The notes under the pieces: generated by a model
The model's input: the letters and a program-made list of their open reading frames with translations, nothing else
Databases searched by the model: none
Told to the model about the DNA's origin: nothing
Shown: in pieces, positions 1 to 16,660 of the stretch
Layout of the letters: each line of letters opens with the position of its first letter
Numbering within the stretch: the stretch's first letter is position 1
Program-made: the position numbers and the translations under genes
Source: the human T2T-CHM13v2.0 reference genome, Homo sapiens
DNA length: 64,000 bases
Direction: 5' to 3' (one strand)
Assembly (NCBI RefSeq): GCF_009914755.1
Contig: NC_060943.1

Positions 1-635
1 AGACACCCACCACCACGCCCGGCTAATTTTTGTTTTTTTAGTAGAGACGGGGTTTTGCCATGTTTCCCGGGCTGGTCTCCAACTCCTGACCTCAAGTGAT
101 CCGCCCACCTCGGCCTCCCAAAGGGCTAGGATTACAGAAGTAAGCCAGTGCACCTGGCCAGCACAATCGTTCTTGCTCCCTAGATGTGAACTGCTGTTTT
201 CACCAGCAGGAGCTAAGGGGCAGGCTGTCTCAGATTAGATGCTTTTTAGAGCACTCTGTAGTTCCTTAAATGGAGCTGCAAATCCACAGGTTGCTGCTCA
301 ATGTCTGACTAGCTTCTACTTTATTTCTGACTTTATTTCTCATCTGTCTCCACCACACCCCTCCCTTCCACATACCCTGCATTCCAGCAAAACTGACCAA
401 TGCATCACATGCCAGACACACCCTGTGATGTCTACCCCAGGACCCTTGCACAGGCTTCTGCCTCAAGAGAGCTCATGATCCAGTGGACAGGCGTGGGCAT
501 TGGAATCTCACAAGCCCAGATCACCTCCCAGTTTCACCTCTTCAATGCTATTGACCTTTGGGGACTGACAAAACCTCTCTGAACTTCAGTTTGCCCAGAT
601 ATAGCATGGACTGAAAAAATGTGTACCTTCTAGGT

Positions 636-1445
<810 letters not shown>

Positions 1446-1538
1446 CTGAATGAGGATTAAAGCTAATGGGACATTTAGCCAGGTGCAGTGGCTCACGCCT
1501 GTAATCCCAGCACTTGGGAGGCCGAGGTGAGCAGATCA

Positions 1539-1832
<294 letters not shown>

Positions 1833-2817
1833 TCACGAGGTTAGGAGTTCAAGACCCGTCTGGCCAAGATGGTGAAACCCCATCTGTACTAAAAATACAA
1901 AAATTAGCCGGACATGGTGGCAGGTGCCTGTAATCCCAGCTACCCAGGAGGCTCAGGCAGAGAATTACTTGAACCCAGTAGGTGGAGGTTGCAGTGAGCC
2001 GAGATTGTGCCACTGCACTCCAGCTTTGGCGACAAAGTGAGACTCTGTCTCAAAAAAAAATATATATATATATTTATATATATATATACACACACACATA
2101 TATACTTACAATACATAATAATATTAATAACATGATATAAATATTAACAACTTAGTATAATGATAGTAAGGATTTACCATGTCAGGCATCTTTCCAAAAA
2201 CTCTTAATATATTAAATCATAGAATTCTCACAACAACTTTTTTTTTTTCAAACGGGGTCTCACTCTGTCACCCAGGCTGGAGTACAGTGGTGCGATCTTG
2301 GTTCACTGCAACCACTAACTCCTGAGTTCAAGCGATTCTCCTACCTCAGCCCCCTGAGTAGCTGGGACTACAGGAGTGCACTACCATGCCCAGCTAGTTT
2401 TTGTGTTTTAAGTAGAGACAGGGTTTCACCATGTTGGCCAGGCTGGTCTCAAACTCCTGATCTCAAGTGATCTGCCCGCCTCGACCTCCCAACGTGCTGA
2501 GATTACAGGCACCTGGCACCGTGCCCAGCTCGTTTTTGCATTTTTAGTAGCGATGGGGTTTCACCATATTGGCCAGGCTGGTCTCGAACTCCTGACCTCA
2601 AGTGATCTACCTGCCTTGGCCTCCCAAAGTGCTGGGATTACAGGCATTATCTACTGCACCAGGCCCTCACAACAACATTTTGATAGTACTATTATTAAGC
2701 TCATTTCACAGATGAGGAACCTGAGAGAGGTAAGGAGAAGTACAATAATCTGCCTAAGGTCGTCGTGGAGCTAGTAATTGGCTAAGCAGCTCCTGGAAGT
2801 CTCGCTAGAGAGTGTCA

Positions 2818-4041
<1,224 letters not shown>

Positions 4042-4331
4042 GTCCCCTCCCTCTTCCTTCTTTCTCCTCCTCACTTCCTTTGTCTCTCTCCCCTTTCTCC
4101 TCACTCTTCCCTCATCTGATTCTCTCTCCATCTGTCTCCTTTTTTGTTGTTGTGGTGGTGGTTGTTGAGTTGGAGTCTCACTCTGTTGCCCAGTCTGGAG
4201 GCTAATGGCATGACCTTGGCTCACTGCAACGGCTGCCTCCCGAGTTCAAGCAATTCTTCTGCCTCAGCTTCTCAAGTAGCTGCGATTATAGGCACGCACC
4301 TGGATAATTTTTGTTTTGTTCTTTTTTTTGA

Positions 4332-4635
<304 letters not shown>

Positions 4636-5601
4636 TACAAACTCCCTCTATTTACTCTCAAGCTTCTCTGTTTCCACCTCCACTAACCCTGGAACCCTGA
4701 GGCGCCCCAGGCCTGCAGTGTATAAATGCCTTCCTGGCAGGCCTTGCTGAGACTTGAGCTCAGCAGTCCTCACCCTCCTTAATCCTAACCAAACAGGATC
4801 TGTCACTAGGCTCAGCGTGCAGAGGACGCCTCGGGTCCTTTTCCTCCTGCGAAACCACAGAGGCAGCCCTAAGGGCCAAAAAATAAAACAGTGTGGAGGG
4901 CTGGGGGATGAGGGTGGGAGCATGCCTGGCAGGGAACGTTTCTTTTTTTTTCCTCCTTCAAAAATTGGAGGGGAGGCCTGGCGCGGTGGCTCACGCCTGT
5001 AATCCCAGCACTTTGGGAGGCCGAGGCGGGCGGATCATCTGAAGTCAGGAGTTGGAGATCAACCAGACCAATATGGTGAAACCCCATCTATACTAAAAAT
5101 ACAAAAATTAGCCAGGTGTGGTGGTGGGAGGCTGTAGTCCGAGCTACTCAGGAGGCTGAAACAGAAGAATTGCTTGAACCCGAGAGTTAGGTGGCAGTGA
5201 GCCGAGATCGTGCCATTGCCCTCCAGCCTGGGTGACAGAGTGAGTCTCAAACAAACAAACAAGCAAAAAAAAAAAAAAAACAAGGAAGGGGATCAAAACT
5301 GTCAGTTGGGACAAATACAGGCTTTACTATGGTAATTCTCTGGCTTTGAGCCAAGGACTGCACCCTCCCCAGGGGGCAGCGCTGAGAGCTGAGTCACCCA
5401 GGATGGTTTAAAATTAAACTCAATTTTCAACATTGTAACTCCTCACAGACAAACACAACTGTGTTTACTAATAGCATTTCTCGGTTTTATCTGACTTTTG
5501 AGTTCTGAAGTCGGGAGATGTGGAGGCTGGAAGTATAAACTGAGACGAAGTGGGCAGAACAGCTCCCTCCCGGCTTCCCCATCCCCAGCCAGCCTCTCTG
5601 A

Positions 5602-5811
<210 letters not shown>

Positions 5812-6063
5812 TAAAGTAGCGATGGCGTTTCACCATGATGGCCAGGCTGGTCTCGAACTACTGACCTCAGGTGGTCCGCCCACCTCGGTCTCCCAAAATG
5901 CTGGGATTACAGGCATGAGCTCCTGCACCTGGCCCAGCCTCTCTGGTTTTGATCTAAGTCATGCCCAAAGCTTGGAAGCGGCTTTACACTACCTTTCTTT
6001 GCTCAAAAATTTGCCATCCATCTATCTGTCTGTCCATGCAATAAATATCTAGTGATCTAATAG

Positions 6064-6396
<333 letters not shown>

Positions 6397-7273
6397 TGAT
6401 TACAGGTGTGAGCCATCGCGCCCGGCCCTATTATTACTATTACTACTATAACAATAAAAACAGCAATTTATTTATTTATTTATTGCAAGACAGAGTCTTA
6501 CACTGTTGCCCAGGCTGGAGTGCAGTGGCAGATCACGGCTCACTGCAGCCGCAACCTCCCAGCCTGAAGCTATCTTTCTGCCTCAGCCTCCTGAGTAGCT
6601 GAGACCACAGGTGTGTGCCACTATGCCTAGCTAGTTCTTTAATTTTTGTAGAGATGGGGTCTAGCTATGTTGCCAGGGCTAGTTTTGATTTTTTTTTTCT
6701 TGTAGAGGTAGGGTCTTGCTGCATTGCCCAGGCTGGCCTCGAGCTCCTGGGCTCAAGCGATTCTCTCGCCTCAGGCTCTCAAAGTGCTGGGACTTTGGCT
6801 GGGATTACAGGCGTGCACCATCATGCCTGGCTAATTTTTGTATTTTTTGATAGAGACATGATTTCACTGTGTTTTCCCGGCTGGTCTCGAACTCCTGGCC
6901 TCAAGTGATCCTCCTGCCTCGGCTTCCCAAAGTGGTGGGATTACAGGCATGAGCCACTATGCCCAGCTCCATCTCTCTCTTCTATCTGCTGCTACTTCTA
7001 GAATACGTAGTGGGCGCAGAATAGGGACTATTTAAGTGTTTGCTGGCCAGACATGGTATCCCATGCCTGTAATCCCAGTACTTTGGGAGACACATAGCCC
7101 CTATTCTGTACCCACTACGTATTCTAGGAGTTGTTTATTTAGTCCTTCTAGAAACATTTCAAACCTGATGTGGTGGCTCACGCCTGTAACCCCAACACTT
7201 TGAGAGGCTGAGGCAGGAGAATCGCTTGAACCCAAGAGTTTGAGGCCAGGCTGAGCAATGTAGCAAGACCCTA

Positions 7274-7519
<246 letters not shown>

Positions 7520-7974
7520 TTATAGAGGAGGATACAGAGGTTCAGAGAGGCCCCCAAGTCGTATGGCTGAGCTGGGATTTGAACCCACAATGATGGGTGC
7601 TCTTCACCACCTTGCAGCTTGCCACTCTCATGAAAAACATACAGTCTGGTGCGGCACACATGATAACTACACAAACAAGGTAATTCAGATATTTAAATGC
7701 TCTAAAGATTCTACATCAGGTTATTTCCAGTATTATTTTCCTGGTCATCCCTGGAAGGATGAGAAGGAACCAACCTTCAGAAGAGCTGCAGAGAGAACAC
7801 CCAGACAGAGTAAAAAGCAAGTGCAAAGGCCCTGTGGTCCAAACCACTTAAAAAGATTTGGAAGCAGCAGAGGTCAGAGTAGCAGGAAGGAAGAGACAAG
7901 AGGCAACAGAGCAGGATATGATGATTTCAGGCCACAGGGGGAGTTTGGGTTTCGTTGTTTCTTTTTTGAGATAG

Positions 7975-8763
<789 letters not shown>

Positions 8764-9427
8764 TAGGCTGGTTTGGGTTTTATCCCCAGTAGGACAGGAT
8801 TCTAGGAGCACAGCAGGGATGGGGTGGCCATTTTACAAGCACTCCAGGGGTGGGGTTGGTAAAAGCGTCACGTCCCAGCTGTCCTCCCTCTAGGATGTTT
8901 ATCACCCCTGTCCTGCAAGATCTAATTCTATGATGTCTTTGCTGCCCCTGAATGACAACAACAAGGCAGATTACCCCAACTCTTTCCCCTCTGCTGTATA
9001 TTTAAGCACCTCCCCTTTGACTTTATATCCTGGACTAGTCTGTGTAAAGACAAAGAAAAACGAGAAACAAGATGCTTAATTCTTCCTGTATTCTGGTTTC
9101 GGGGAAGGGTCAAAATATAACTTCAGTGGATGCCTTGCTCCAAATTGCAAAACTCCCTCCTGTCATGATGAAAGATGTGTTTTTCCCCTGGATAAAGCCA
9201 ATTAGCTCACACCGTCGTCACAATGACTAGGTGGCTCCAGGATGAACTATGCGTTTGATAAACGGTGCTGTCAAGTTCTGTTACTGGAGAACTAATGATT
9301 ATTTATCATGAGGCATGAAGGTGACAGGTTTATCTGCTTGGCTATAGAAAAAGGGTGAGATGTAGGCTGGACACGATGGCTCATGTCTGTAATCCCAGCA
9401 CTTTGGGAGGCCGAGGTGGGCAGATCA

Positions 9428-9742
<315 letters not shown>

Positions 9743-10213
9743 TCACTTGAGGCTAGGAGTCTGAGACCAGCCATGGTAAGACCCCATTTCTACTAAAAAT
9801 ACAAAAATGAGGGCTGGGCATGGTGGCTCAAATGCCTGTAATCCCAGCATATTGGAAGGCCAAGGTGGGTGGATCGCTTGAGTTCAGGAGTTTGAGATCA
9901 GCCTGGCCAACATGGCAAAACCCCGTCTCTACTAAAAATAAAAAAATTAGCCAGACATGGTGGCGGGCGCCTGTAATCCCAAAAAAAATTAGCCAGACAT
10001 GGTGGCGGGCGCCTGTAATCCCAGCTACTCCGGAGGCTGAGGTGGAAGGATCATTTGAACCGGGGAGGGGAAGGTTGCAGTGAGCCAAGTTCACACCACT
10101 ACAATCCAGCCTGGGCGACAAAGCGAGACTCCGTCTCAAAAACAAAACAAGGCCGGGTGCAGTGGCGCATGCCTGTAATCCCAGCACTTTGGGAGGCTGA
10201 GATGGGTGGATCA

Positions 10214-10447
<234 letters not shown>

Positions 10448-11551
10448 TTAGCTGGGTATGGTGTCTCTTGCCTGTAATCCTAGCTACTCAAGAGGCTGAG
10501 GCAGGAGAATCGCTTGAGCCCAGGAGGCGGACCTTACAGTGAGCTGAGATCACTGAACTGCACTCCAGTTTGGGCGACAGAGCGAGACTCTGTCTCAAAA
10601 AAATAAATAAATAAAATAAATGAAAAAGGGCAAGATTTCTTTCTGCCTTTGCAATGTCCTAGGCCTTATCTACGACGTGCACCACACTCTGGATGAATGC
10701 TTATTCAGTGATAACATTAAGGGGTATTTTTTTCCTTTCCCTTCTACTTTTGTGGAGAGGTTTCCTGAGTTGAGAGAAGATTCTTGCATTTAGTTGTATT
10801 TCCACAACATCAGCACGTCCTACATTTTTTAAATCTGCCCAGCCAGCCTGAATTTCAGGAAGCCAGAGAGGCCCTAGTTGGTTGCTCTTATTTATTTACT
10901 TAGAGACACAGTCTCACTCTGTTGCCCCAAGCTGGAGTGCAGTGATGGAAATCTCCGCTCACTCCAACCTCTGCCTCGTGGATTCAAGTGATTCTCGTGC
11001 TTCAGCCTCCCGAGGAGCTCGGATTACAGGCACTGACCACCACACCCAGCTAATTTTTTTGTATTTTTAGTAGAGATAGGGTTTCGCCATGTTGGCCAGG
11101 CTGGTCTCGAACTCCCAACCTGAGTTGATCTGCCCGCCTCGGCCTCCCAAAGCGCTGGGATTACAGGTGTGAGCCACGGCGCCTGGCCTGTTGCTATAAT
11201 TTTAGAGAAACACAGTGGGCTCTATCATTAGTCCTGGGTTCAAATCCTGTGTGGTCCTGGATAGGCCACTCAAATTCTGCTTGTTTCCTCTCTAGTAAAT
11301 TAGGGTTACGTCTGACAGCATCTATTTTGGAGAGTCATTGCTAGGACTAATGGTGACAAAGAACTTAATACAGATCCTAGCCCAGATCAAACAATTTTAG
11401 TTAATAGTAATAACCACCTTGCTTTTAGGATAGCTGAGACTCACTGGGCCAGCACCATGCCAAGCTCCTATCTTAGTAACAATGAAATGAGGCCTACCTT
11501 TACAATAAAAGCTAACATATCCTGTTGGCCATGTGGCAGGCACTGGGCTAA

Positions 11552-11773
<222 letters not shown>

Positions 11774-12189
11774 TAGTCTTGAACTCTTGAGCTAAAGTGA
11801 TCCGCCTGCCTTGGCCTCCCAAAGTGTGGAATTACAGGCGTGAGTCACCGTGCCTGGCTGTCTGCCTTTACTTTCTTTCTGTCCTTTTTTTTTTTTTTTT
11901 TTTTTTTTTGCTTTGAGACAGAGTCTCAATCTGTTGTCCAAGCTGGAGTGCAGCCGAACAATCATACCTCACTGTAGCCTCAACCTCCTGGACCCAAATG
12001 ATCCTCCGACCTCAGCCTCCTGAGTAGCTGGGACTACAGGCACGTAACATCATGCCTGGCTAATTTTTATTTTATTTTTAGTAGAGAAGGTTTTGCTGTA
12101 TTGCCCAGGCTGTTCTCAAACTACTGAGCTCAAGTGATCCTCCCATCTTGGCCTCCCAAAATGTTGGGACTGCAGGCCTGGCTAATTAA

Positions 12190-12720
<531 letters not shown>

Positions 12721-13419
12721 TAACTATCGTCACCCTGCTATACAATAGATGTCTTGAATTTTTTCCTCCCATCTAACTGTAATTATGTATCTTTTTACCA
12801 CCTCTCCTCATCCATCTTCCTCAACACCCTTCCCAGCCTCTGGTAACCACCATGGTAACCTGCAGACACCTTCATCTCCAACTTCCGGCCTGCAGAACGG
12901 AGAGATGATACATTTCTGTTGTTGAGGCCTCCAGTCTATGGTACTTGGTTATATCAGCCTCAGAAAACTAATGCAACCTCCAAATCCCTCATCGCTCCCT
13001 CTGAGTGTCTTGTCTACTTTTTCTCCAGTGTCCTGTAAGTCCTCAAAGCCTGCAGGGGCACATAGCAGGGGCTCAATGTACAAATGCCCATTCACTGACT
13101 ACATGATCCTCCCAGGAGAGGTAGGAGAAACATGAGCCAGTTAAAGAAGAGAGACTGGGGTCGGGTGCGATGGCTCATGCCTGTAATCCCAGCACTTTGG
13201 GAAGATGAAGCAGGAGGATTGCTTGAGTCCAGGAGTTCAGGACCAGCTTGGGCAACATAGGGAGACCCTTTTTCTCTACTTTTATTTATTTTTATTTTTT
13301 ATTTTTTTGGAGACGAAGTCTTGCTCCTGTCCCCCAGGCTGGGGTGCGATGGCATGATCTCGGCTCAATGCAACCTCCGCCTCCTGGGTTCAAGCGATTC
13401 TCTTGCCTCTGCTTCCTGA

Positions 13420-13665
<246 letters not shown>

Positions 13666-13681
13666 TGAGGTGGGCAGATCA

Positions 13682-13987
<306 letters not shown>

Positions 13988-14048
13988 TCACCTGAGATCA
14001 GGAGTTTGAAACCAGCCTGACCAACATAGTGAAAACCCATCTCTACTA

Positions 14049-14390
<342 letters not shown>

Positions 14391-14908
14391 TCAGCCAATA
14401 TCTCTAAGCTCCCCGTGGGATTGTGAATCCTACATGTCCCCCACCCCAGGCTTGCATGAAAAATAAGGTTTCTCTTGGGTGCCACACAGAGAGGATCCCT
14501 TCTGTGTCCCTCAAGCCATCTGTGACCGTCCCACTTCATAAAAGCAAAGGTCACTTGCTCATTGAAACTTCCTCTGTGCCAGGCAAGAGCTGCATCGCCC
14601 CAACAGGCCCCTCAAGCAAGATGCTATTATCATTATCATGATGCCCTTTTTGCAGATGGGGAAAAGTGAGGCTCAGAAAGACCAAGTCCGCAGGCCCCAT
14701 CTCTACTGAAAATACAAAAACATTAGCGCCCGTAATCCCAGCTACTCCGGAGGCTGAGGCAGGAGAATTGCTGAGATCGCGCCATTGCACTCCAGCCTGG
14801 GCGACAAGACCAAAACTCTGTCTCAAAAAAAAAAAGAAAAAGAAAGTAAAGGGGGAGAAGGAAAGGAAGAGGGTGGTTGGGAACACAGAAGAGGTGACAA
14901 TTGGGTAG

Positions 14909-15019
<111 letters not shown>

Positions 15020-15338
15020 TAGACCAACCTGGCCAACACAGGGAGACCTCGTCTCTGCAAAATATTTAAAAACAATTAGCTGAGCTAGGTGGCACACATC
15101 TGTGGTCCCAGCTACTTGGGAGGCTGAATTGGGAGAAGCACTTGAGTTTGGAGGTCTAGGCTGCTGTGAGCCGTGATCATGCCACCATACTCCAGCCTGG
15201 GCAACAGAGCAAGATCCTGTCAAAAAAAGGAAGGAAGGAGTGGGGTTGACATGCAAGGCCATTTGAGGATGGGCTGGGACATTGTGGACTCATTTCCCTC
15301 CTCCCCAGAGGACCAGAAGGAGCAAGAGATCCCCTTAC

Positions 15339-15420
15339 CTGTGGGCAGCAGGTATCTCAGCATTAGTAACACCAGGGCCCACCGCCGGCCTCCAGGGGCA
15401 CCCTGCCACAGGCCAGCCAT
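15339..15420 (-). CDS. Candidate first coding exon encoding a signal-peptide-like leader MAGLWQGAPGGRRWALVLLMLRYLLPT (phase-1 end); probable distal exon of the neighbouring minus-strand gene MUC16
   Basis: ATG at 15420 with G at +4 and an in-frame TGA immediately upstream. Basic n-region then hydrophobic core. 82 nt ending in CAG|GTAAGG (GT at 15338-15337). Lies in non-repetitive sequence. The link to MUC16 is inferred from locus context. Confidence 0.6.
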
Positions 15421-15555
15421 TCACGGCTTCAGGAAGACTTGGGGGCTGCTCTTTGCCCTCGTTCCAGCCCCCCAGCCAAGCCCAGAGACATGTCCAGCAG
15501 CTCCAGGCGGCCAGGTGCCTAAGATCTGGCGGGTATCAAATGTGCCCAGTCAGCC

Positions 15556-15621
15556 TAATCCCTGCGAGGCTGGGCGGGGCTGGGAAGGATCCCCTCGCCT
15601 ATTCCCAGGCCCTGATTGGCT
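15556..15621 (-). promoter_or_regulatory. Candidate TATA-less proximal promoter (NF-Y CCAAT box + Sp1 GC box)
   Basis: AGCCAATCAG on the minus strand (ATTGG at 15615-15619), TGGGCGGGGC at 15571-15580 and TAATCC at 15556-15561, about 135-200 bp upstream of the ATG at 15420. Confidence 0.55.
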
Positions 15622-16660
15622 CCCTGGGCCCTTGGTTCTGCCTGTCTGGGCTCCCAGGAAGACAGGGCTCCATGGGCATTGAGGGGAGCGGGAGTTTCAG
15701 CTGCCAGGCTCAGCTGCGGGTGTCAGGAAAAGTCTCCCTAGAATGTTCCCCAGACCCAGAGCTGCACTGCGACTTTCATGGGCCACAATCACTTTTGCAA
15801 TTTACCCATTACTTTTTTTTTTTTTTTTTGAAAGGAAGTCCTATTGTGTTGCCCAGGCTGGAATGCAGTGGTGCCATCTTGTCTCACAGCAAACTCCGCC
15901 TCCCGGTTCAAGCGATTCTTGTACCTCAGCCTCCCGAGTAGCTAGGACTACAGGCACACACCACCATGCCCAGCTAATTTTTGTATTTTTTAGTAGAGAC
16001 AGGGTTTCACCATGTTGGTCAGGCTGGTCTCCAACTCCCTATCTCAAGTGATCCGCCAGCCTTGGCCTCACAAAGTGCTGAGATTACAGGCGTGAGCCAC
16101 AGCGCCCAGCCTATACTTACATTCCTCCCTCCCCAGCTTTATTGAAGGATGATTGGCAAATAAAACATTAAATGTCTTATAATTTGTAATAATTTTTGAG
16201 CAAAGAGGCTCCCATTTTCACTTTGCACTGGACCCTGCAAATCACGCCTCTGGTCCTGCTGCAAGCGGTAGTCTCTGCTATTCCACAGCAGCCTCATGTT
16301 CTCTCTCTGTGACGCTCTGAATTGTATCCCCCTCAAATTCACAAGTTGAAGCCTTTACTTCCGATGTGACTGCATTCAGCAACAGTTTTCAGGCTGGGCG
16401 CAGTGGCTCATGCCTGTAATCCCAGCACTTTGGGAGGCCGAGGAGGGTGGATCACCTGAGGTCGGGAGTTCGAGACCAACCTGACCAACATGGAGAAACC
16501 CCATCTCTACTAAAAATACAAAAATCAGCTGGGTGTGGTGGTGGGCACCTGTAATCCCAGCTACTCAGGAGGATTCAAGCGATTCTTCTGCCTCAGCCTC
16601 CCAAGTAGCTGGGATTACAGGTGCACGCCACTACACCTGGGTAATTTTTTTTTTTTTTAG

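What the first reader, a model, noticed from the sequence alone, without database searches (positions are those of the whole stretch)
15339..15621. Orphan signal-peptide exon with its own promoter, pointing away from the OR cluster: candidate true first exon of MUC16
Seen: an Alu-free island contains, on the minus strand and in order, an NF-Y box (AGCCAATCAG), a perfect GC box, TGA-ATGG, 27 codons MAGLWQGAPGGRRWALVLLMLRYLLPT (RR then a hydrophobic core), and a strong donor CAG|GTAAGG in phase 1. Known: signal-peptide exons typically end in phase-1 introns. MUC16 (CA125) is the minus-strand neighbour of OR1M1 on this side, and its classical protein model lacks an obvious N-terminal signal peptide. 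Inference: this is a distant exon 1 supplying the secretory leader and promoter, so bases 1-15338 would be intron 1. Newer annotations may already include it; I cannot check.
Basis: partly seen in the sequence, partly recalled or inferred. Interest (0 to 1): 0.85.

Follow-up and report, generated by a model that had tools for sequence, protein, structure and literature searches.

The report
Known alternative first exon of MUC16
This is a real signal-peptide-like first exon of the mucin gene MUC16 that is conserved across placental mammals, but public annotation already lists it as the start of a minor transcript, and the reference transcript starts at a second conserved leader exon 55 kb further in.

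Summary
The combination is unique in the window: one signal-peptide-like ATG-ORF at 5 consensus donors, and one CCAAT-plus-GC-box pair.

It is not an orphan. RefSeq lists 15339-15530 (coding 15339-15420) as exon 1 of MUC16 transcript NM_001414686.1. It splices to a 432-nt exon 2 outside the window and then to the shared MUC16 exons.

It is not "the" first exon either. The Select transcript NM_001401501.2 starts 55 kb downstream at another phase-1 leader exon, which also looks like a signal peptide.

Both leaders are conserved. In 113 MUC16-like proteins, 20 carry the Select-type leader and 7 carry the distal exon 1 and/or exon 2, in reindeer, sheep, two whales, chinchilla, ground squirrel and dugong. 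The ATG and the exon 1/2 junction are kept. Exons 1 and 2 are 60-81% identical to human, against 24-50% for the mucin domain.

The distal ATG has a weak context and follows a 20-codon uORF.

Verdict: a known, conserved alternative distal promoter and leader exon. Expression could not be tested.

The parts
15612..15621 (-). CCAAT (NF-Y-type) box AGCCAATCAG; CCAAT lies 85-89 nt upstream of the RefSeq transcript start
   Evidence: Sequence. The stricter pattern RRCCAATSR occurs 7 times in the 64 kb on both strands, and this is the only one followed by a GC-box core within 80 nt. Binding was not tested.
15571..15580 (-). GC box (Sp1-type), 41-50 nt upstream of the RefSeq transcript start
   Evidence: Sequence. 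The core GGGCGG occurs 19 times in the window on both strands. Binding was not tested.
15523..15529 (-). Initiator-like CCAGATC, 1-7 nt inside the annotated transcript start (15530)
   Evidence: Sequence. The YYANWYY consensus is recalled, and a match is expected by chance about once per 128 positions, so this is weak.
15421..15530 (-). 5' UTR of NM_001414686.1 exon 1 (110 nt)
   Evidence: RefSeq rows given with the finding; exon length 192 with the main ATG at offset 110.
15429..15491 (-). Upstream ORF: 20 codons plus stop, frame +1 relative to the main ORF, G at -3
15339..15420 (-). Coding part of the distal exon 1: 27 codons plus 1 base (phase 1), a signal-peptide-like leader
15333..15341 (-). 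Splice donor CAG|GTAAGG
   Evidence: It is one of 5 MAG|GTRAG sites in the window.
1..15338 (-). Part of intron 1 of NM_001414686.1; the intron runs on to exon 2 at chr19:9161367-9161798, 14.2 kb beyond the window's low end
15136..15803 (.). Island without masked repeats that holds the promoter and exon; GC 0.59, CpG observed/expected 0.22, so not a CpG island

Best explanation
Window 15339-15530 (minus strand) is the distal alternative first exon of MUC16, driven by its own non-CpG-island promoter with a CCAAT box and a GC box. Transcripts that start here splice from the phase-1 donor at 15339 across about 29.5 kb to a 432-nt exon 2 (chr19:9161367-9161798). They then skip the proximal leader exon and join the shared exon at chr19:9119727-9119840.

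The protein (RefSeq isoform of 15,491 aa) begins with a cleavable-type signal peptide of about 27-31 residues. This is followed by a conserved, non-mucin, Pfam-less segment of about 140 residues ahead of the Ser/Thr-rich mucin domain.

The reference (Select) isoform uses a second promoter 55 kb downstream. Its first exon supplies an unrelated signal peptide in the same phase. So MUC16 has two interchangeable leader exons, both inherited from early placental mammals.

Shown: the sequence anatomy, the annotation, reading-frame continuity, uniqueness in the genome, and conservation in ortholog models. Inferred: signal-peptide function, promoter activity, and lower translational efficiency of the distal start because of its weak ATG context and the uORF.
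For: - Four MUC16 transcripts are listed with three different starts, and all 5' exons are in phase 1.
- **Frame and splice sites.** Exons 1-4 of the distal form translate to 242 aa with no stop. Exon 2 has a strong pyrimidine-tract acceptor and a GTAAGT donor.
- **Conservation.** Local blastp against all 113 MUC16-like proteins gathered gave 6 of 113 with the exon-1 peptide. Four start with it at their Met (reindeer 81%, chinchilla 73%, dugong 67%, ground squirrel 62%), the fin whale partial model starts inside it, and in sheep it is internal. Five of 113 carry exon 2 at 60-63% identity over 86-144 aa in four of them, with a 25-aa piece at 76% in fin whale. The exon 1/2 junction is at the same place in human, reindeer, chinchilla and dugong.
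- **Stronger than the mucin domain.** Identity to human is 67-81% for exon 1 and 60-63% for exon 2, against 24-50% for the first 1000 aa of the mucin exon.
- **Neutral control.** A neutral simulation of exon 2 kept the frame open in only 85-493 of 5000 runs. It reached 60% aa identity in 0 of 5000 runs at 0.4 substitutions per site or more.
- **Signal-peptide features.** The N-region has charge +2. The hydrophobic run is 8 residues, with a best 8-residue Kyte-Doolittle mean of 2.77 (3.0-3.7 in orthologs). Small residues at -3/-1 allow cleavage after residue 27, 29 or 31. The classical start scores 0.80.
- **No duplicate.** Promoter and exon are single-copy, exon 2 has no paralogue in the genome, and the two leader exons share no real DNA similarity.
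Against: - No expression evidence of any kind was available: no reads, CAGE or chromatin data. RefSeq lists no functional element on the promoter.
- The main ATG has T at -3 and follows a 20-codon uORF with G at -3. The Select start has A at -3, G at +4 and no uATG.
- Only 7 of 113 ortholog models show the distal exons, against 20 with the Select-type leader. The other 86 show neither, and many start inside Ser/Thr-rich sequence, so they say nothing either way.
- Several supporting models are weak. The sheep model is an ab initio chimera with olfactory-receptor fragments. The dugong model is flagged low quality and the fin whale model is partial.
- NCBI models may have been guided by the human protein, so they show that the sequence and frame are conserved, not that it is transcribed.
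- A direct search with the sheep exon region found only two sheep proteins. That search also missed relatives I already held, so its blank means little.
- No primate model with an intact N-terminus was within the length range the tool can reach.
- SignalP was not available. An Arg sits right after the 8-residue core.
- The neutral divergences used to read one search are recalled, not measured, and the simulation ignores indels and shared ancestry.
Confidence: 0.8

Rival explanations
1. One reading: this is the principal, 'true' first exon of MUC16, and the proximal (Select) exon is secondary or mis-chosen.
For: The distal leader is at least as well conserved as the proximal one in the one close comparison available. 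Human against reindeer gives 81% over 27 aa, while human against ruminants for the proximal leader gives 60-73% over 30 aa. It is the only one of the two found in an afrotherian model, the dugong. Exon 2 is the best conserved part of the whole N-terminal region.
Against: RefSeq marks the proximal-start transcript as Select. The proximal ATG has the strong context and no uATG, while the distal one has a weak context and a uORF. Nineteen of 113 models start with the proximal-type leader, against 4 with the distal one. No expression data were available to overturn the curators' choice.
Confidence: 0.1
2. Exons 1 and 2 are really a small, separate, conserved upstream gene for a secreted protein of about 175 aa, and the link to MUC16 is read-through or a chimeric model.
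For: Exon 2 is non-mucin, matches no Pfam family and is better conserved than the mucin domain. Reading through the exon 2 donor meets a stop after 6 codons, which would close a short ORF.
Against: No poly(A) signal lies in the 167 intron bases I held downstream of exon 2, or in 1.4 kb downstream of exon 1. Exon 2 ends in phase 1 at a consensus donor, matching the phase of every downstream MUC16 exon. Models in reindeer, chinchilla and dugong all continue from exon 2 into MUC16. RefSeq curates it as MUC16.
Confidence: 0.05
3. The transcript is rare noise that was captured in annotation, and the leader-like ORF has no function.
For: The ATG context is weak and there is a uORF. The region is not a CpG island and carries no annotated regulatory element. 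I found no paper that studies it.
Against: The ATG, frame and junction of exon 1 are conserved, and the 144-codon exon 2 is conserved, across three mammalian orders (Artiodactyla including whales, Rodentia, Sirenia) at a level the neutral simulation did not reach. The combination of motifs is unique in 64 kb.
Confidence: 0.05

Closest known systems
Proximal (RefSeq Select, NM_001401501.2) first exon of MUC16, chr19:9135997-9136137
   Same: It is a first exon of the same gene on the same strand. It holds 29 codons plus 1 base in phase 1, with basic residues followed by a hydrophobic core. Its promoter region is also not a CpG island (observed/expected 0.25). It is conserved in other mammals and feeds the same downstream exon.
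   Different: There is no detectable DNA similarity between the two. The proximal exon joins the shared exon directly, whereas the distal one first adds a 144-codon exon 2. The proximal ATG has a strong context and no uATG, and it heads 19 of the 113 ortholog models against 4.
Classical MUC16/CA125 model (NM_024690.2 and NM_001414687.1), which starts inside the 9.3-kb mucin exon
   Same: Same gene and the same downstream protein.
   Different: Its first 50 residues have no hydrophobic core: the best 8-residue hydropathy mean is 0.80, against 2.77 for either leader. So it lacks the signal peptide that both upstream first exons provide.
Secretory-protein genes whose signal peptide sits on a short first exon ending in a phase-1 intron, and genes with alternative promoters that supply different leader exons (general classes, recalled rather than tested here)
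   Same: A short first exon carries the leader, the boundary is phase 1, and downstream exons are 1-1 symmetric. Two promoters supply two leaders.
   Different: The distal form adds a conserved non-mucin segment whose function is unknown, and the two promoters lie 55 kb apart.

Membership tests
Annotated exon 1 of MUC16 transcript NM_001414686.1 | Coordinates and coding part coincide with the RefSeq exon | tested here: met
RefSeq exon is 15339-15530 with coding part 15339-15420 (rows given with the finding).
Annotated exon 1 of MUC16 transcript NM_001414686.1 | Open frame continues through the annotated downstream exons in matching phase | tested here: met
   Exons 1-4 give 242 aa with 0 stops. 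All boundaries are phase 1.
Annotated exon 1 of MUC16 transcript NM_001414686.1 | Transcript evidence: capped 5' ends and junction reads | not testable with these tools
The evidence behind the RefSeq record was not visible.
Principal (Select) first exon of MUC16 | Is the first exon of the transcript marked Select | tested here: not met
   The Select transcript NM_001401501.2 begins at chr19:9136137, outside the window.
Cleavable N-terminal (Sec-type) signal peptide | Positively charged N-region | tested here: met
   Net charge is +2 before the core, and +1 to +2 in four orthologs.
Cleavable N-terminal (Sec-type) signal peptide | Hydrophobic core of about 7-15 residues | tested here: met
   The core is an 8-residue run, WALVLLML, with an 8-residue hydropathy mean of 2.77. 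Orthologs have 7-9 residues and means of 3.0-3.7. The length range is recalled.
Cleavable N-terminal (Sec-type) signal peptide | C-region with small residues at -3 and -1 | tested here: inconclusive
   My own simple rule allows cleavage after residue 27, 29 or 31. No trained predictor such as SignalP was available.
Cleavable N-terminal (Sec-type) signal peptide | Directs translocation and is cleaved | not testable with these tools
   Needs an experiment.
CCAAT/GC-box promoter without a TATA box | CCAAT box 60-100 nt and GC box about 40-50 nt upstream of the transcript start | tested here: met
   Positions are -89/-85 and -50/-41 relative to the RefSeq start at 15530. The pair is unique in the window. 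The typical distances are recalled.
CCAAT/GC-box promoter without a TATA box | CpG island | tested here: not met
   CpG observed/expected is 0.22-0.29.
CCAAT/GC-box promoter without a TATA box | Factor binding, open chromatin, promoter activity | not testable with these tools
No RefSeq functional element overlaps it.

The most novel reading that the evidence does not exclude
The distal leader plus exon 2 is an ancestral N-terminus of MUC16 in placental mammals. It gives the mature protein a conserved, non-mucin segment of about 140 residues that is better conserved than the mucin domain and has no known family. This segment may have a function of its own, for example as a pro-segment, a binding module or a tissue-specific tip of the molecule. 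It would have been overlooked because MUC16/CA125 work has used the leaderless classical model. I found no paper in the library that discusses any MUC16 leader or distal promoter.
Probability: 0.35. Interest if true: 0.5.

Novelty: already known. Interest (0 to 1): 0.3.

Why it matters
MUC16 carries the CA125 epitope, and for two decades its working protein model started inside the mucin domain with no signal peptide. Current annotation repairs that with two upstream leader exons, and this finding is the distal one.

So the distal start is unlikely to be noise.

If its use is tissue- or tumour-specific, it would mark a separately regulated MUC16 promoter 84 kb upstream of the classical start, next to an olfactory receptor cluster. 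It would also give a distinct N-terminal segment that antibodies or mass spectrometry could detect.

As a discovery from raw sequence it was a good call, but the database already holds it.

Tried and rejected
**Duplicated leader exons.** Rejected. A forced alignment gave 144 invariant columns of 348 with no blocks, and the own-genome DNA search found no second copy of exon or promoter.

**Exon 2 as a known domain or a member of a human family.** Rejected. It matches no Pfam family at E up to 1. The only other genomic match had E 0.85.

**Direct search for the distal exon in other species.** I used the sheep protein region 205-330. It returned only 2 sheep proteins among 187 candidates. It also missed proteins I already held that share that region, so I treat the blank as uninformative. 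I used a broad C-terminal search plus local BLAST instead.

**Reaching primate or full-length human proteins.** Not possible. Loci are cut at 10,000 bases (one search returned 10,000 of the 20,000 asked for). The longest usable query was 5,226 aa, so candidates stopped at about 9,145 aa. The primate models within that range start inside the mucin domain.

**Papers.**
- Searches were search listings only, with nothing relevant.
- led to PMC10829539, of which I read passages. Its long-read work amplified only the tandem-repeat and C-terminal part, and the terms 'signal peptide', 'exon 1', 'first exon' and 'start codon' occur 0 times in it.
- led to PMC11481993, of which I read passages. It names NM_001414686.1 only as an expression construct, and it places its 'MUC16 promoter' at the classical start.
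- led to PMC1552070, of which I read passages. It says nothing on a MUC16 signal sequence.
- Searches were listings only, with nothing relevant.
- searched six exact phrases about a MUC16 signal peptide, start site, N-terminus and isoform 2, and found 0 papers.
Those of PMC10829539 hold the sequence alignments but concern the repeat region.

**Other limits.** The Atlas search on exon 2 was not available.

Full report
**1. What is in the sequence**

Read on the minus strand, the region holds these elements in order:
- a CCAAT box in the context AGCCAATCAG (15621-15612);
- a GC box GCCCCGCCCA (15580-15571);
- the RefSeq transcript start at 15530, with an initiator-like CCAGATC just inside it;
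- a 110-nt 5' UTR;
- an in-frame TGA abutting the ATG at 15420;
- 27 codons reading MAGLWQGAPGGRRWALVLLMLRYLLPT;
- one further base, which makes the boundary phase 1;
- the donor CAG|GTAAGG.

No masked repeat lies in 15136-15803. A search of the whole genome with that island found only its own place for the promoter and exon. The low-coordinate edge (about 15139-15239) matches dispersed copies on many chromosomes.

The region is GC-rich (0.59-0.64) but CpG-poor (observed/expected 0.22-0.29), so it is not a CpG island.

**2. Is it more than chance?**

Yes. The window has 5 MAG|GTRAG donor sites on both strands. Only one ATG-ORF of 15-45 codons with a positive N-region and a hydrophobic core ends at one of them, and that is this exon. 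A strict CCAAT context followed within 80 nt by a GC-box core also occurs once in the window, here.

**3. What annotation says**

RefSeq lists four MUC16 transcripts with three kinds of start.

| Transcript | Start | Protein |
|---|---|---|
| NM_024690.2, NM_001414687.1 | inside the 9.3-kb mucin exon (classical model) | 14,507 and 15,309 aa |
| NM_001401501.2 (Select) | chr19:9135997-9136137, outside the window | 15,349 aa |

- The first 50 residues of the classical model have no hydrophobic core.
- All these exon boundaries are in phase 1.
- The distal exons 1-4 translate to 242 residues without a stop, and all splice sites are canonical.
- Window 1-15338 lies within intron 1 of this transcript.

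It is not an orphan, and it is not the first exon of the reference transcript.

**4. The second leader**

The Select first exon encodes MGREGPAHPGHRRRPLLALAVSLLLTCWP plus one base. It has the same design: basic residues, then a hydrophobic core, then phase 1.
- The two exons show no real DNA similarity, so they are not recent copies of each other.
- The Select ATG has A at -3 and G at +4, with no upstream ATG.
- The distal ATG has T at -3 and G at +4. It is preceded by a 20-codon out-of-frame uORF whose ATG has G at -3.
- By the usual scanning rules, which I recall rather than tested, the distal mRNA should be translated less efficiently.

**5. Conservation**

No mammalian genomes were at hand, so I used orthologous protein models.

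How the panel was built:
- A search with the first 1000 residues of the large human mucin exon gave 10 proteins.
- A search with the C-terminal 1227 residues of a sheep protein gave 108 proteins.
- Together, this made a panel of 113 proteins.

Local blastp against the panel (E below 0.05) gave these results:
- **Distal exon 1 peptide: 6 of 113.**
  - Four models begin with it at their Met: reindeer P0055 (MAGRWQGTPGGRLWLLVLLALRYLLPT, 81%), chinchilla P0029 (73%), dugong P0058 (67%) and golden-mantled ground squirrel P0017 (62% over 21 residues).
  - One partial fin whale model (P0105) starts inside it.
  - One sheep model (P0005) carries it internally, after olfactory-receptor fragments.
- **Distal exon 2 peptide: 5 of 113.** Identity is 62.5% over 144 residues in dugong, 62% over 142 in chinchilla and 63% over 140 in reindeer. 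It is 60% over 86 in sperm whale, where the model starts inside exon 2. A 25-residue piece matches in fin whale.
- **Select-type leader: 20 of 113, with 19 at residue 1.** These cover cattle and relatives, sheep, deer, oryx, two rhinoceroses, a fruit bat, a stoat and a bank vole, plus one internal match in badger.
- **The other 86 proteins show neither leader.** Many start inside Ser/Thr-rich sequence, so they look like truncated models and say nothing either way.

Further points:
- The alignment of N-termini puts the exon 1/2 junction at the same residue in human, reindeer, chinchilla and dugong.
- Identity to human is 67-81% for exon 1 and 60-63% for exon 2, against 24-50% for the first 1000 residues of the mucin exon in the same or related species.
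- Both leader types occur within the same groups. Sheep has both, and each occurs in deer and in rodents. So the two-promoter arrangement predates the split of these orders.

A crude neutral simulation of exon 2 (Jukes-Cantor, no indels) gave these results:
- The frame stayed open in 85 to 493 of 5000 runs, depending on divergence.
- At 0.4 or more substitutions per site, 60% amino-acid identity was reached in 0 of 5000 runs.
- At 0.3 substitutions per site, it was reached in 391 of 5000 runs.
- The neutral divergence between human and these species is recalled as at least about 0.3-0.5. It was not measured here.

**6. Limits of that evidence**

- Gene models are predictions, and NCBI's may lean on the human protein. 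They show that the ATG, frame, junction and sequence are kept in those genomes, not that the exon is expressed there.
- The sheep model is a chimera: its N-terminus matches the olfactory receptor family 7tm_4.
- The dugong model is flagged low quality.
- No primate model with an intact N-terminus could be reached, because the search only sees proteins up to 1.75 times the query length.

**7. Signal peptide**

No trained predictor was available. My own simple measures gave the following.

| Start | N-region charge | Hydrophobic core | Best 8-residue hydropathy mean |
|---|---|---|---|
| Distal leader | +2 | 8-residue strictly hydrophobic run | 2.77 (3.0-3.7 in orthologs) |
| Select leader | +3 | 13-residue uncharged run | 2.77 |
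| Classical start | 0 | none | 0.80 |

The distal leader also has small residues at -3/-1 that would allow cleavage after residue 27, 29 or 31, which is at or just past the exon junction. Both leaders therefore look like cleavable signal peptides. This is an inference.

**8. Exon 2**

- Its 143 full codons are not Ser/Thr-rich.
- They match no Pfam family and have no paralogue in the human genome.
- The reading frame closes 6 codons past the donor.
- No poly(A) signal was seen in the 167 intron bases held. A separate small gene is therefore possible but unsupported.

**9. Literature**

Eight searches and passages of three papers turned up no discussion of a MUC16 signal peptide, a leader exon or a distal promoter.
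- The long-read revision of the CA125 model (PMC10829539) amplified only the repeat and C-terminal part.
- PMC11481993 cites NM_001414686.1 only as a construct, and it takes the classical start as the promoter.
- The library lacks most subscription journals, and supplements were closed.

**10. Verdict**

This is a true, conserved MUC16 first exon that supplies a secretory leader and has its own promoter-like motifs.
- It is already annotated.
- It is the distal of two conserved alternative leader exons, not the reference one.
- Novelty is 'already known', and interest is modest.
- The open point worth following is what the distal isoform's conserved segment of about 140 residues does, and where that promoter is used.

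Noticed in passing
window 15429-15491 (-): A 20-codon uORF (MSLGLAGGLERGQRAAPKSS) lies in the 5' UTR of the distal exon 1. It is out of frame with the main ORF, has G at -3, and ends 8 nt before the main ATG, which itself has T at -3. It may damp translation of this isoform.
   Followed up: partly
L002:168-597 (-), i.e. chr19:9161367-9161798, outside the window: Exon 2 of the distal isoform encodes 143 full codons that are not mucin-like. They match no Pfam family and have no human paralogue. They are 60-63% identical in reindeer, chinchilla, dugong and sperm whale, which is more than the mucin domain. Function is unknown.
   Followed up: partly
exon 2 alignment: Reindeer, chinchilla and dugong share an N-x-S sequon (RN[TM]SDSS) where human reads NMNDAS, which has no sequon. 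Without primate sequences I cannot say when it was lost.
   Followed up: no
proteins P0005 (sheep) and P0025 (lesser hedgehog tenrec): Two MUC16 gene models begin with olfactory-receptor sequence. P0005 matches 7tm_4 at residues 69-109. P0025 has precomputed PF00001/PF13853 domains and an OR-like N-terminus. They are probably chimeric predictions caused by the OR cluster lying just upstream of MUC16, as in this window.
   Followed up: partly
window about 15139-15239: The low-coordinate edge of the 'repeat-free' island matches dispersed copies on many chromosomes at 77-90% identity. It looks like the unmasked end of a neighbouring interspersed repeat. I did not classify it.
   Followed up: no
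tool behaviour: The word-based protein search with P0005 residues 205-330 returned only 2 proteins. It missed P0001, P0055 and the cattle proteins, which share long identical or near-identical stretches with that region. Blanks from that tool should not be read as absence.
   Followed up: yes
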